This document shows, one piece after another, positions 31,954 to 33,542 of a stretch of DNA of 64,000 nucleotides. The notes below the pieces were generated by a model that was not told where the DNA came from, did no database searches, and was given only the letters and a program-made list of their open reading frames with translations. Origin of the DNA: Candidatus Spongiisociaceae bacterium (GTDB taxonomy: Bacteria; Actinomycetota; Acidimicrobiia; Spongiisociales; Spongiisociaceae); assembly GCA_965219685.1 (NCBI GenBank), contig CBDCOH010000002.1:2464001-2528000 (forward strand), read 5' to 3'. How positions within the stretch are numbered: position 1 is the first letter of the stretch; each line of letters begins with the position of its first letter. The translations under genes were made by a program, and so were the position numbers.

Positions 31954-31998
31954 GCCGTTGCCCGTCGCCCGTGAACGGCTACCACACCTAATGGGGGT

Positions 31999-32190
31999 CC
32001 ACCACTTCTGCCGGTGTTTCTGGGAGGGTGTGGTGGTTGAGCTGGCTGGCCGGTGAGTACTGATGGCACCCGGAACGTTGATTCCTAGAGCTAGAGCGTA
32101 CCCCGGCCGGTTCGCGAGGGTGCTTGTAGCGCTCATGGGGTGTCGTGCCGTAGAGCACTGATCCATTAGGTCGCCGCCGGGTGTCCCTCG
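31999..32190 (+). ncRNA. IS110 bridge RNA (5' stem-loop, target-binding loop, donor-binding loop)
   Basis: TGGGGTGTC (32136-32144) equals the right end 33470-33478. CCATTAG (32163-32169) is the reverse complement of the left end 31988-31994. AGCTAG (32089-32094) is the reverse complement of core plus right flank. Confidence 0.85.
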
Positions 32191-32236
32191 AAGCTCTCTG
32201 ACAATGTTTTGGGACTGTTTCTGAAGGAGGCAGCAG

Positions 32237-33457
32237 ATGATCTTTGTGGGAGATGACTGGGCTGAGGCGCATCACGATGTGTGTCTGATGGACGAGGCGG
32301 GAACTCGGTTGGCTGGACGGCGGCTGCCGGAGGGCCTGGCGGGGGTGGCCCAGTTGCATGAGATGATCGCCGAGCACACATCGGATCCGGCCGAGGTGGT
32401 GTTAGGCATCGAGACCGATCGGGGCCTCTGGGTCGGTGCTCTGGTCGCAGCGGGCTATCAGGTATATGCGATCAACCCCAAGGCGGTGTCCCGTTACCGG
32501 GATCGGCACAGCATGGGCGGAGCGAAATCAGACCGTGGCGATGCCAAGGTGTTAGCCGATCTGGTACGAACCGACCGTCACAACCATCGTCCCGTGGCCG
32601 GGGACAGCCCAGAAGCGGACGGGATCAAGATCATGGCCAGAGCGCATCAGAACCTGAAATGGGCCCGGGTGCGTCACACCAACCAGATGCGCAACGCCCT
32701 CCGCGAATACTATCCCGCAGCGTTGGAAACGTTCGATGACCTGGCCCATCGCGACGCCCTTGCCGTCCTGGGCAAAGCACCCACCCCCACCCTGGGCACC
32801 CGCCTGACACTGCCCCAGATCAGAGCAGCCCTCCAGAAAGCCGGGAGGCGACGCAACCTCGACAAGGTTGCCCGCCGCATCCAGAAAGGCCTCAGAGGTG
32901 CCCACCTCACCGCACCGGAGCCGGTTGAGAACGCACTCGGGACAACAGTTGCATCACTGGTCAACATCATTGTGGAAACCAACCACCAGATCGAACAGCT
33001 CGAGCAAACCCTCGAGACCCGTTTTAGAGAACACCCGGACGCCGTCATCTACCACTCCCAGCCAGGACTCGGTACCGTGCTCGGCGCCCGGGCGCTCGGT
33101 GAGTTCGGGGACGACCCCCAACGCTACACCAGCGCCAAGTCTCGCAGGAACTACGCCGGCACGTCGCCCATCACCATCGCATCAGGCCGCAAACACGCCG
33201 TCACGGCCCGCCACGTCCGCAACCGGAGACTCTACGACGCCCTCGACCAATGGGCATTCTGCACCCTAACCCGAAGCCCAGGCGCCCGAGCCTTCTACGA
33301 CCAACGACGAGCAGCCGACGACGAACACCACCAAGCCCTCCGAGCCCTCGCCAACCGACTCGTAGGCATCCTCCACGGCTGCCTCAAACACCGAACCCCC
33401 TACAACGAACACACCGCCTGGGCCCACCGAACCGCCCTCGACCGAGCCGCAGCTTGA
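32237..33457 (+). CDS. IS110 family transposase (DEDD RuvC-like recombinase)
   Basis: FVGDDW, GIET, INP, AKSDRGDA, PGLG and AGTSPITIASG motifs; SD AAGGAGG. Confidence 0.96.
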   Translation: MIFVGDDWAEAHHDVCLMDEAGTRLAGRRLPEGLAGVAQLHEMIAEHTSDPAEVVLGIETDRGLWVGALVAAGYQVYAINPKAVSRYRDRHSMGGAKSDRGDAKVLADLVRTDRHNHRPVAGDSPEADGIKIMARAHQNLKWARVRHTNQMRNALREYYPAALETFDDLAHRDALAVLGKAPTPTLGTRLTLPQIRAALQKAGRRRNLDKVARRIQKGLRGAHLTAPEPVENALGTTVASLVNIIVETNHQIEQLEQTLETRFREHPDAVIYHSQPGLGTVLGARALGEFGDDPQRYTSAKSRRNYAGTSPITIASGRKHAVTARHVRNRRLYDALDQWAFCTLTRSPGARAFYDQRRAADDEHHQALRALANRLVGILHGCLKHRTPYNEHTAWAHRTALDRAAA

Positions 33458-33542
33458 CATTTACGCTCCTGGGGTGTCTAGCTAGCTCATCGTGGTCGTC
33501 GTGGTCGGTCCTGGCTCGGTAGTCGAGTACCCTCCGGAGTTA

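What the first reader, a model, noticed from the sequence alone, without database searches (positions are those of the whole stretch)
31981..33485. IS110 element with a fully decodable bridge RNA
Seen: the left non-coding end folds into a 5' hairpin (CCACCAC/GTGGTGG) and two large internal loops, each with a central mini-hairpin (GGAA/TTCC; GTGC/GCAC). Donor loop: TGGGGTGTC matches the right end 9/9 and CCATTAG is the reverse complement of the left end 7/7, specifying the circle junction TGGGGTGT-CT-AATGG. Target loop: AGCTAG is the reverse complement of CT-AGCT (core plus right flank, 6/6), and ATGGCACC (32063-32070) against the left flank ACCACACC gives 5 matches, 2 wobbles and 1 mismatch. 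Known: this is the IS621-type bridge RNA architecture for RNA-guided recombination. Inference: a new, apparently intact programmable recombinase with preferred target about ATGGCAC-CT-AGCT and tolerance for left-guide mismatches.
Basis: partly seen in the sequence, partly recalled or inferred. Interest (0 to 1): 0.85.

Follow-up and report, generated by a model that had tools for sequence, protein, structure and literature searches.

The report
Intact IS110 element with bridge RNA
This is a complete, apparently active IS110-type jumping gene whose left end encodes a bridge RNA that spells out both its own ends and its insertion site, an ordinary but cleanly readable new member of a known RNA-guided recombinase family.

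Summary
Window 31988-33479 is a 1.49-kb IS110-group insertion sequence. It consists of a CT core, a 247-nt non-coding left end, a 406-aa DEDD/Tnp recombinase, a 20-nt right end and a second CT core. Chance is excluded by comparison. Across 69 related elements, one per unique guide, the left target guide matches its own left flank 4.62 of 7 against 2.21 on permutation. The right guide matches 4.39 of 5 against 1.92. In both tests 0 of 10,000 permutations reached the observed value. The handshake guides, donor guides, helices (23 of 44 pairs compensatory) and a promoter split across the right-end/left-end junction all behave as published for IS621. A second, 100% identical copy elsewhere argues for recent activity. 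No RNA, circle or activity data could be obtained. It is a new member of a known kind. One side finding is less ordinary. Relatives carry 17 short scars that keep only the first 20 nt of the left end, sit at cognate targets and all end at one internal CT.

The parts
31981..31987 (+). Left target half (LT, 7 nt, ACCACAC) of the interrupted target site
   Evidence: The same 7-mer precedes a single CT in the unoccupied paralogous repeats. It pairs with the left guide at 4 of 7 identities, or 6 of 7 counting wobble pairs.
31988..31989 (+). Left copy of the CT core
   Evidence: CT is present once in the empty paralogous sites and twice around the element. CT precedes AATGG in all 5 full-length copies of the genome.
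31990..32236 (+). Non-coding left end (247 nt) that encodes the bridge RNA. The first bases AAT supply the 3' half of the junction -10 box.
   Evidence: The CTAATGG terminus is found 223-272 nt upstream of the ATG in 69 related elements.
31999..32036 (+). 5' hairpin (arms 31999-32005 and 32030-32036)
   Evidence: fold. Helix 1 has 7 pairs, 4 of them with compensatory change, and 95.2% of cells paired.
32041..32116 (+). Target-binding loop with its closing stem and the central mini-hairpin (32072-75 with 32082-85)
   Evidence: Helix 3 has 14 pairs, 8 compensatory, 99.3% paired. Helix 4 has 4 pairs, 2 compensatory.
32063..32071 (+). Left target guide: ATGGCAC followed by the core-pairing positions CC
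   Evidence: Across 58 unique elements this segment equals the element's own left flank at frequencies of 0.55, 0.59, 0.60, 0.64, 0.86, 0.83 and 0.97 for positions -7 to -1. The null frequencies are 0.25-0.57. With one row per guide the mean is 4.62 of 7 against 2.21.
32088..32094 (+). Right target guide (GAGCTAG). It is the reverse complement of the core plus the right flank, with 4 of 5 flank positions matched here.
   Evidence: in 55 unique elements the match frequencies for RT5 to RT1 are 0.53, 0.73, 0.93, 0.96 and 1.0, against nulls of 0.25-0.73; mean 4.39 of 5 against 1.92.
32095..32096 (+). Handshake guide of the target loop (AG). The A can pair with the last right-end base T (33477).
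   Evidence: A opposite donor position 7 = T in 61 of 62 unique elements. The concept comes from passages of PMC11208158.
32117..32193 (+). Donor-binding loop with its closing stems and the invariant mini-hairpin (32145-48 with 32155-58)
   Evidence: Helix 5 has 8 pairs, 5 compensatory. Helix 6 has 3 pairs, 1 compensatory. Helix 7 has 4 pairs that never vary.
32136..32144 (+). Left donor guide TGGGGTGTC, identical to the right end plus the first core base
   Evidence: Guide and right end are identical in 45 of 62 unique elements, and both A-A and G-G states occur at position 5. Ten more differ only at wobble-compatible positions.
32163..32169 (+). Right donor guide CCATTAG, the reverse complement of the core plus AATGG
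   Evidence: The segment is conserved with the CTAATGG terminus across the family.
32170..32171 (+). Handshake guide of the donor loop (GT), complementary to target positions 7 and 6 (C31987, A31986)
   Evidence: the first base is Watson-Crick to target position 7 in 63 of 65 unique elements, with three pair types (G:C 46, C:G 14, T:A 3).
32237..33457 (+). Recombinase gene, 406 aa. The putative catalytic residues are D7, E59, D99, D102 and S316.
   Evidence: Pfam DEDD_Tnp_IS110 at 9.9e-37 and Transposase_20 at 6.5e-10. IS621 is the only PDB sequence hit (1.7e-5). The residues are invariant in 24 homologues. The best fold matches are ISCro4 and IS621.
33454..33459 (+). TTGACA, the -35 box of the promoter that would be completed only in the circular (right end joined to left end) form. 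It overlaps the stop codon.
   Evidence: a TTGAC[A/G]-like hexamer lies 17-18 nt upstream of T|CT|AAT in 52 of 52 unique end pairs. A junction promoter is published for IS621 (passages read).
33458..33477 (+). Right end (20 nt). Its last 8 nt, TGGGGTGT, form the left donor half.
   Evidence: The motif TGGG[A/G]TGTCT (up to 1 mismatch) lies about 15 nt after the stop in 64 of 69 elements.
33478..33479 (+). Right copy of the CT core
33480..33484 (+). Right target half (RT, AGCTA)
32008..32009 (+). Internal CT, 20 nt inside the left end. This is the point at which the short left-end scars in this and related genomes end.

Best explanation
Window 31988-33479 is a complete insertion sequence of the IS110 group, carrying a bridge RNA and its recombinase.

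Proposed cycle:
1. The recombinase and the RNA join the two CT cores. This releases a circle whose junction reads TGGGGTGT-CT-AATGG.
2. The junction assembles a near-consensus promoter: TTGACA, 17 nt, then TCTAAT.
3. That promoter transcribes a structured RNA of about 190 nt, starting near 31996-31999, and then the recombinase gene.
4. The donor loop of the RNA holds the circle junction. [quoted passage not shown]
5. The target loop holds a chromosomal site of the form ATGGCAC-CT-AGCTC. ATGGCAC-C pairs with the bottom strand on the left, and GAGCTAG pairs with the top strand on the right.
6. Strand exchange at CT inserts the element without any duplication beyond the shared CT.

Shown here: the anatomy, the protein family, the exact boundaries, the empty site, guide-to-flank and guide-to-end covariation across relatives, conserved handshake positions, the conserved split promoter, and a second identical copy.

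Inferred by analogy with IS621: the RNA itself, the circle, the chemistry and the reprogrammability.

In the integrated state no promoter is visible. Expression probably depends on read-through from the same-strand upstream gene, which ends at 31953.
For: - Protein: both IS110 Pfam domains. IS621 is the only PDB sequence match. D7, E59, D99, D102 and S316 are invariant in 24 homologues. The predicted fold is closest to the ISCro4 and IS621 synaptic-complex chains, E 3e-8 to 1e-7.
- Boundaries: 5 full-length copies in the genome share sequence exactly from CT-AATGG to GGTGT-CT and differ outside.
- Empty site: two unoccupied paralogous repeats carry the exact 14-mer ACCACAC-CT-AGCTA with one CT.
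- Target guides: the left guide matches its own flank at a mean of 5.03 of 7 (58 unique rows) against 2.29. The right guide matches at 4.15 of 5 (55 rows) against 2.05. In both, 0 of 10,000 permutations reached the observed value. The result holds with one row per guide (39 and 31 rows).
- Within this genome: the 82%-identical copy at L003 has different guides that fit its own flanks 7 of 7 and 5 of 5.
- Handshake positions: 63 of 65 and 61 of 62 complementary, as described for IS621.
- Donor guide and right end covary at position 5.
- Structure: 23 of 44 pairs are compensatory, and 0 of 500 shuffles reach that.
- Split promoter: conserved in 52 of 52 unique end pairs. There are 0 sigma-70-like sites in the integrated context 31700-33700.
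- Recent mobility: a second copy is 100% identical over 1,499 nt at another locus whose flanks also read CAC-CT-AGCT.
Against: - No RNA, circle or activity evidence was obtained.
- The left guide fits both real insertion sites poorly at distal positions: 4 of 7 and 5 of 7 identities.
- Its second core-pairing base is C, not U. U is found in 72% of 58 relatives.
- The genome holds no site within 1 mismatch of the guide-ideal 14-mer (0 sites; 17 sites at up to 2 mismatches).
- Two identical natural 14-mers remain unoccupied.
- The folding energy of the single sequence is unremarkable (z = -1.25).
- The structure model is only moderate (pLDDT 64.7, low in both catalytic loops). TM-scores to IS621 are 0.38-0.48.
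- The covariation rows are related elements, not independent events.
Confidence: 0.93

Rival explanations
1. The element is a genuine IS110 member but a crippled or nearly silent copy. The guide no longer has a cognate site in this host, and the C at the second core-pairing position weakens target pairing. On this view the element persists rather than transposes.
For: - 0 sites lie within 1 mismatch of the guide-ideal 14-mer.
- There are only 2 copies of this type, while 2 identical natural targets stay empty.
- The left guide has 3 and 2 distal mismatches at the two occupied sites.
- No promoter is visible in the integrated state.
Against: - The two copies are 100% identical at different loci, which needs a recent transposition.
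- The ORF is full length with all putative catalytic residues.
- 28% of the 58 relatives also lack U at that guide position.
- Distal left-guide mismatches are common in the family.
Confidence: 0.2
2. The left end is only a structured 5' leader that regulates translation of the recombinase. Target choice is made by the protein, and the complementarities are a by-product of terminal sequence conservation.
For: - The donor guides and the ends are both conserved, so their match alone could be shared ancestry.
- The ribosome-binding site and ATG follow the structured region directly.
Against: - The target guides are hypervariable, yet they follow flanks that are not part of the element.
- The donor-loop handshake base changes with target position 7 through three pair types.
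- Close copies that differ in their guides sit in different, matching sites.
Confidence: 0.02
3. It belongs to the IS1111 (seekRNA) branch, or has another architecture in which the guide RNA lies in the right end.
For: The two branches share the same protein domains.
Against: - The right end is only 20 nt and the left end 247 nt.
- All four guides lie in the left end.
- This is the IS110-group arrangement described in PMC11208160 (passages read).
Confidence: 0.01

Closest known systems
IS621 of Escherichia coli (bridge RNA and recombinase; PMC11208160, PMC11208158, PMC13626964)
   Same: - The order of parts is the same: CT core, long left end with the RNA, DEDD/Tnp recombinase, short right end, CT core.
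- The RNA has two internal loops with left and right guides, and the strand rules are the same.
- The left target half is 7 nt.
- The handshake bases follow the right guides. As in IS621, a G follows the right donor guide opposite a donor T at position 7.
- Left-donor position 7 tolerates mismatch.
- The promoter is split across the right-end/left-end junction.
- The catalytic residues align.
   Different: - The protein is 406 aa against 326 aa, with about 17% identity in the structural alignment. Sequence similarity is weak (E = 1.7e-5), and the extra length lies mainly in the helical middle part.
- The right target guide covers 5 flank bases in the natural elements. The natural-element analysis of PMC11208160 counted a four-base guide (passage read).
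- The donor sequence differs.
- The host is a high-G+C actinobacterium.
- Nothing has been tested experimentally.
ISCro4 bridge recombinase (PDB 9t56)
   Same: It is the best fold match of the predicted structure (E = 3.3e-8).
   Different: About 17% identity over the structural alignment. I read no paper on it, so only the PDB title was seen.
Unnamed IS110-group elements of Rhodococcus, Mycobacterium/Mycolicibacterium, Smaragdicoccus, Nocardia and Acidimicrobiia assemblies (loci L009-L088)
   Same: - The recombinases are 59-85% identical.
- They share the CTAATGG and TGGG[A/G]TGTCT termini, the RNA scaffold and the split promoter.
   Different: - Their target guides and 5' hairpins differ.
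- The nearest proteins in the large database are 89% identical and unnamed.
- I could not check ISfinder names.
IS1111-group elements with seekRNA
   Same: They share the recombinase family and the principle of RNA-guided target choice.
   Different: In that group the RNA lies in a long right end and the subterminal inverted repeats are long (passages of PMC11208160). Here the RNA lies in the left end.

Membership tests
IS110 family, IS110 group (bridge-RNA insertion sequences) | Recombinase with an N-terminal DEDD (RuvC-like) domain and a C-terminal Tnp (Transposase_20) domain | tested here: met
   PF01548 at 9.9e-37 (residues 4-160) and PF02371 at 6.5e-10 (residues 274-354). Fold matches to IS621 and ISCro4.
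IS110 family, IS110 group (bridge-RNA insertion sequences) | Catalytic D, E, D, D and Ser (IS621 D11, E60, D102, D105, S241) | tested here: met
   D7, D99/D102 and S316-G317 align with the IS621 residues. E59 was placed by motif (GIET against CIEA), because the HMMER alignment is offset by two residues there. All five are invariant in 24 homologues.
IS110 family, IS110 group (bridge-RNA insertion sequences) | No terminal inverted repeats. The element is flanked by the same dinucleotide core, which is present once in the empty site. | tested here: met
   CT lies on both sides and occurs once in two unoccupied paralogous sites. The boundaries are fixed by 5 copies.
IS110 family, IS110 group (bridge-RNA insertion sequences) | Long non-coding left end and short right end | tested here: met
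   247 nt against 20 nt.
IS110 family, IS110 group (bridge-RNA insertion sequences) | The left end folds into a stem-loop followed by two internal loops supported by covariation | tested here: met
   7 helices, 96% of cells paired, 23 of 44 pairs compensatory, 0 of 500 shuffles as high.
IS110 family, IS110 group (bridge-RNA insertion sequences) | First-loop guides complementary to the target: the left guide to the bottom strand, the right guide to the top strand, both including the core | tested here: met
   In the window copy the left guide gives 4 of 7 identities (6 of 7 with wobble) plus the first core base. The right guide matches the core plus 4 of 5 flank bases.
IS110 family, IS110 group (bridge-RNA insertion sequences) | Second-loop guides complementary to the joined right end and left end | tested here: met
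   9 of 9 and 7 of 7 in the window. Family table.
IS110 family, IS110 group (bridge-RNA insertion sequences) | Handshake bases after the right guides pair with position 7 of the other DNA | tested here: met
   63 of 65 and 61 of 62.
IS110 family, IS110 group (bridge-RNA insertion sequences) | Promoter reconstituted across the circle junction | tested here: met
   This was tested by sequence only. TTGACA, 17 nt, then T|CT|AAT in the window; conserved in 52 of 52 unique end pairs.
IS110 family, IS110 group (bridge-RNA insertion sequences) | The RNA is expressed and bound by the recombinase | not testable with these tools
The runs found are held as contigs only.
IS110 family, IS110 group (bridge-RNA insertion sequences) | Circular intermediate and RNA-dependent, reprogrammable recombination | not testable with these tools
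   The only indirect evidence is two identical copies at different cognate-like sites.
Rfam bridge-RNA model | A match to a curated covariance model | tested here: not met
   No Rfam 15 family hits 31988-32236 at E up to 10. I did not establish whether Rfam holds a bridge-RNA family at all.

The most novel reading that the evidence does not exclude
The short left-end scars may be a natural footprint of bridge recombination, in a family regarded as scarless.

What was seen: in 8 of the 29 same-family genomes searched, this one included (the 21-nt left-end start itself occurs in 12), 17 sites keep only element positions 1-20 plus a second CT. They sit between left and right target halves that fit the guides of full copies of the same clade. 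They all end at the same internal CT (window 32008-32009).

The boldest reading is that the recombinase recurrently uses this internal CT as a pseudo-core. It could do so in a partial excision that pairs the internal CT with the right-end core, releasing a defective circle. Alternatively it could do so in an abortive two-step 'direct transfer'. Either way this would leave a countable fossil record of element loss or failed insertion.
Probability: 0.5. Interest if true: 0.65.

Novelty: new member of a known kind. Interest (0 to 1): 0.4.

Why it matters
For the element itself the value is practical. It is a fully annotated bridge RNA and recombinase pair from a high-G+C actinobacterial lineage, with a recombinase 80 aa longer than IS621. 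Sister copies in the same and related genomes differ mainly in their guides, which amounts to a natural reprogramming series. Such pairs are candidates for genome-editing tools in G+C-rich hosts.

The data also give a clean natural estimate of which guide positions matter. The three proximal left positions and four proximal right positions match in 83-100% of elements, whereas the distal left positions match in about 60%.

The scars, if they are made by the recombinase, would bear on how these elements are lost and on off-pathway products. That is a current question in the field (copy-out against cut-out, half-match recombination, partial circles).

Tried and rejected
- Rfam scan of 31500-34000 at E up to 10. 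Nothing hit the left end. The only real hit was Ms_AS-4, antisense inside the gene.
- Thermodynamic test of the single RNA. Not significant, so not used as support.
- Orthologous empty site in relatives. The upstream gene is found in 34 of 41 genomes. In the nearest relative (G007) the intergenic spacer is a different repeat of about 95 nt without the element. This shows only absence of the element there, not the exact empty site. The exact empty site came from paralogous repeat copies instead.
- Public runs. 20 of the 24 runs listed hold the stretch or part of it, 4 of them half of its words or more, and all are kept as contigs.
- Half-match explanation of the scars. The idea was that the right donor guide binds the sequence after the internal CT. 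It was rejected as sufficient, because the element holds better CTNNTGG sites (32060, 32132, 32285) that are not used.
- Microhomology deletion as the source of the scars. Judged unlikely, because only TCT is shared and 17 sites have the same end point.
- Scars in the Rhodococcus/Mycobacterium relatives. There were 19 hits in 5 genomes: 15 full elements, 1 longer fragment and 3 one-mismatch hits that look like chance. No scars were found, but the pattern needed 20 nt of left end, so shorter scars would be missed.
- Literature on scars. One search (IS110, bridge RNA, footprint, scar, remnant, solo; at least 3 terms) listed one relevant preprint, 10.64898/2026.08.14.744561. Its passages describe partial circles that reuse one terminal boundary, not genomic scars. 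PMC13626964 has 0 occurrences of 'scar', 'footprint' or 'imprecise'. Supplements are closed and could hold such data.
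Full report
WHAT IS THERE. The region reads as the first-stage reader said. The left flank ACCACAC (31981-31987) is followed by CT (31988-89) and then the left end, starting AATGG at 31990. The non-coding left end runs 247 nt to the ATG at 32237. 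A 406-aa ORF ends at 33457. A 20-nt right end finishes with TGGGGTGT (33470-77). A second CT follows (33478-79), and then the right flank AGCTAGC. The ORF carries both IS110 domains, PF01548 at 9.9e-37 and PF02371 at 6.5e-10. Its only sequence relative among solved structures is the IS621 recombinase (1.7e-5).

The residues corresponding to IS621 D11, D102, D105 and S241 align as D7, D99, D102 and S316. E59 corresponds to E60 by motif, because the HMMER alignment is offset by two residues there. All five are invariant in an alignment of 24 homologues of 70-89% identity. An AlphaFold model is only moderate, with pLDDT 64.7 and both catalytic loops below 50. Its best PDB matches are nevertheless the ISCro4 and IS621 synaptic-complex chains (E 3e-8 to 1e-7, TM 0.36-0.48), followed by Nop5 proteins.

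BOUNDARIES AND EMPTY SITE. The genome (4.42 Mb, 2 contigs) holds eight matches to the element:
- the window copy;
- a second copy, 100% identical over 1,499 nt;
- three copies of 82-83% identity;
- two fragments and a 29-nt match.

All five full-length copies share sequence from CT-AATGG to GGTGT-CT and diverge outside it. Two of the diverged copies (L004, L005) have the ORF cut at 91 aa. The window copy sits in a dispersed intergenic repeat. Two unoccupied members of that repeat read ...GGCTACCACAC-CT-AGCTAGCTCATCG... with one CT. In the nearest relative the orthologous spacer is a different repeat without the element.

THE RNA. I fetched 80 related loci (59-85% protein identity) from Rhodococcus, Mycobacterium/Mycolicibacterium, Smaragdicoccus, Nocardia and Acidimicrobiia assemblies. 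Together with the five own copies, 69 elements have the CTAATGG terminus 223-272 nt upstream of the ATG. Of these, 64 have TGGG[A/G]TGTCT about 15 nt after the stop.

The 59 distinct left ends align over a conserved scaffold. On the 54 of them given to the alignment tool (5 near-duplicates left out), RNAalifold predicts the two loop-closing stems and the two mini-hairpins. I named a structure consisting of those helices plus the 5' hairpin, without four guide-to-guide pairs. It has 96.0% of cells paired and 23 of 44 pairs with compensatory change. Shuffles give 12.4 +/- 2.1 (0 of 500 as high), and slid controls give 10-15. The folding energy of the single sequence is not exceptional (z = -1.25).

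GUIDES. The segment aligned with 32063-32069 equals each element's own left flank at the following frequencies for positions -7 to -1, over 58 unique rows: 0.55, 0.59, 0.60, 0.64, 0.86, 0.83 and 0.97. The nulls are 0.25-0.57. The mean is 5.03 of 7 against 2.29.

The segment aligned with 32088-32092 is the reverse complement of the right flank at 0.53, 0.73, 0.93, 0.96 and 1.0 for RT5 to RT1, over 55 rows. The mean is 4.15 of 5 against 2.05. None of 10,000 permutations reached either mean. With one row per distinct guide (39 and 31 rows) the means are 4.62 and 4.39, against 2.21 and 1.92, again 0 of 10,000. The rows are related elements, so these are not independent events. But the flanks are host DNA, and guides and flanks change together.

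Inside this genome the 82% copy L003 has guides that fit its own flanks 7 of 7 and 5 of 5. The window copy scores 4 of 7 (6 of 7 with U.G and G.T pairs) and 4 of 5. Its identical twin scores 5 of 7 and 4 of 5.

The donor guide TGGGGTGTC is identical to the right end in 45 of 62 unique rows, with both A and G states at position 5. Ten more rows differ only by wobble-compatible changes. The base after the right donor guide is Watson-Crick to target position 7 in 63 of 65 rows (G:C 46, C:G 14, T:A 3). The A after the right target guide faces the last right-end T in 61 of 62 rows. These are the handshake guides described for IS621 (passages of PMC11208158). Strand rules and loop order are as in PMC11208160 (passages).

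PROMOTER. The right end carries TTGACA (33454-59). Seventeen nt downstream, the last right-end T, the core CT and the first left-end AAT would read TCTAAT once the ends are joined. A TTGAC[A/G]-like hexamer 17-18 nt upstream of T|CT|AAT is present in 52 of 52 unique end pairs. The integrated context has no sigma-70-like site and no terminator-like site. A junction promoter, and dependence of excision on read-through transcription, are published for IS621 (passages). Here the upstream gene (a transketolase-fold E1 beta subunit) is on the same strand.

VERDICT ON THE FINDING. The element is an IS110-group member with an IS621-type bridge RNA, and by sequence it is intact. What is missing is any direct evidence of the RNA, the circle or activity.

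There are points against full activity:
- The second core-pairing base of the left guide is C, where 72% of relatives have U.
- No genomic site lies within one mismatch of the guide-ideal 14-mer.
- Two identical natural targets are unoccupied.

Because thousands of such RNAs have been predicted (PMC11208160 passages), this is a new member of a known kind.

SIDE FINDING. The 29-nt match is a copy of the same flanking repeat. It carries only the first 20 nt of the left end between two CTs. Searching the 21-nt left-end start in 29 genomes of the family gave 67 places in 12 genomes:
- 37 full left ends;
- 9 at contig edges;
- 4 longer fragments;
- 17 short scars ending at the same internal CT.

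Of the 17 scars, 14 read ...CACTT-CT-A..., and the other 3 are consistent with later small changes. The scar flanks fit the guides of full copies of the clade, for example LT 7 of 7 with RT 5 of 5 at L127, L131 and L134. The mean RT match is 3.65 of 5, against 2.0 for a control 20 nt further on. Some scars are orthologous or duplicated, leaving roughly 14-15 distinct loci. No right-end scars were seen in the own genome. No solo left-end starts of 20 nt or more were seen in five genomes of the Rhodococcus/Mycobacterium relatives, which lack this internal sequence.

A half-match of the right donor guide does not by itself explain the site. Two published phenomena could be related. One is partial circles that reuse one terminus (10.64898/2026.08.14.744561, passages). 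The other is half-match recombination (10.64898/2026.08.31.748434, abstract only), together with a two-step direct transfer (10.1101/2025.10.25.684509, section 8). I found no description of such genomic scars in the searches named under Tried and rejected.

Noticed in passing
own genome C2:3481222-3481242 (L008), C2:638887-638907, C2:101387-101407 (L105); 14 further sites among L104-L161: There are 17 short scars that keep only the first 20 nt of the left end plus a second CT. All end at the internal CT that corresponds to window 32008-32009. They are flanked by target halves that fit the guides of full copies.
   Followed up: partly
window 33058-33139, minus strand: Rfam Ms_AS-4 (RF02464, 'Actinobacteria sRNA') matches at 79.8 bits, antisense to a conserved part of the recombinase gene. 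The family may simply track the coding conservation of IS110 genes.
   Followed up: no
window 31954-31987 and 33480-33621; many other places in the genome: The element sits in a dispersed intergenic repeat with a conserved core flanked by heptamer arrays: GTTGCCC-like units on the left and CACCATT/CACCACT units at about 33541-33610 on the right. BLAST of the right flank gave well over 100 hits in the genome.
   Followed up: partly
L119, L128, L149-L154 (genome G002, same genus): Sister elements have nearly the same left guide (G[A/G]UGGCAC-CC or GACGGCAC-CC) but different right guides (AGUGCCAG, AGUGUCAG, AGUGCUAG). Several of them lie in CTGACAC heptamer arrays. This is a natural retargeting series.
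   Followed up: partly
own genome C2:3.08-3.15 Mb (L003-L007): The three 82-83% copies and two fragments cluster within about 70 kb. L004 and L005 have the ORF cut at 91 aa. L005 has a duplication of about 26 nt in its right end. L007 is a left-end fragment joined to inverted flanking sequence of L003.
   Followed up: no
L004, L005, L084 (donor loop): A variant right donor guide, CUGCUAG, is kept in three copies from two genomes although the left end is still CTAATGG. With G.T and U.G pairs it still pairs at 6 of 7 positions.
   Followed up: partly
L002 (own genome C2:130164-131662): The identical second copy lies next to a minus-strand ORF (L002 797-1585) whose listed start falls inside the element's left end. 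The copy may therefore have interrupted a gene or replaced its start.
   Followed up: no
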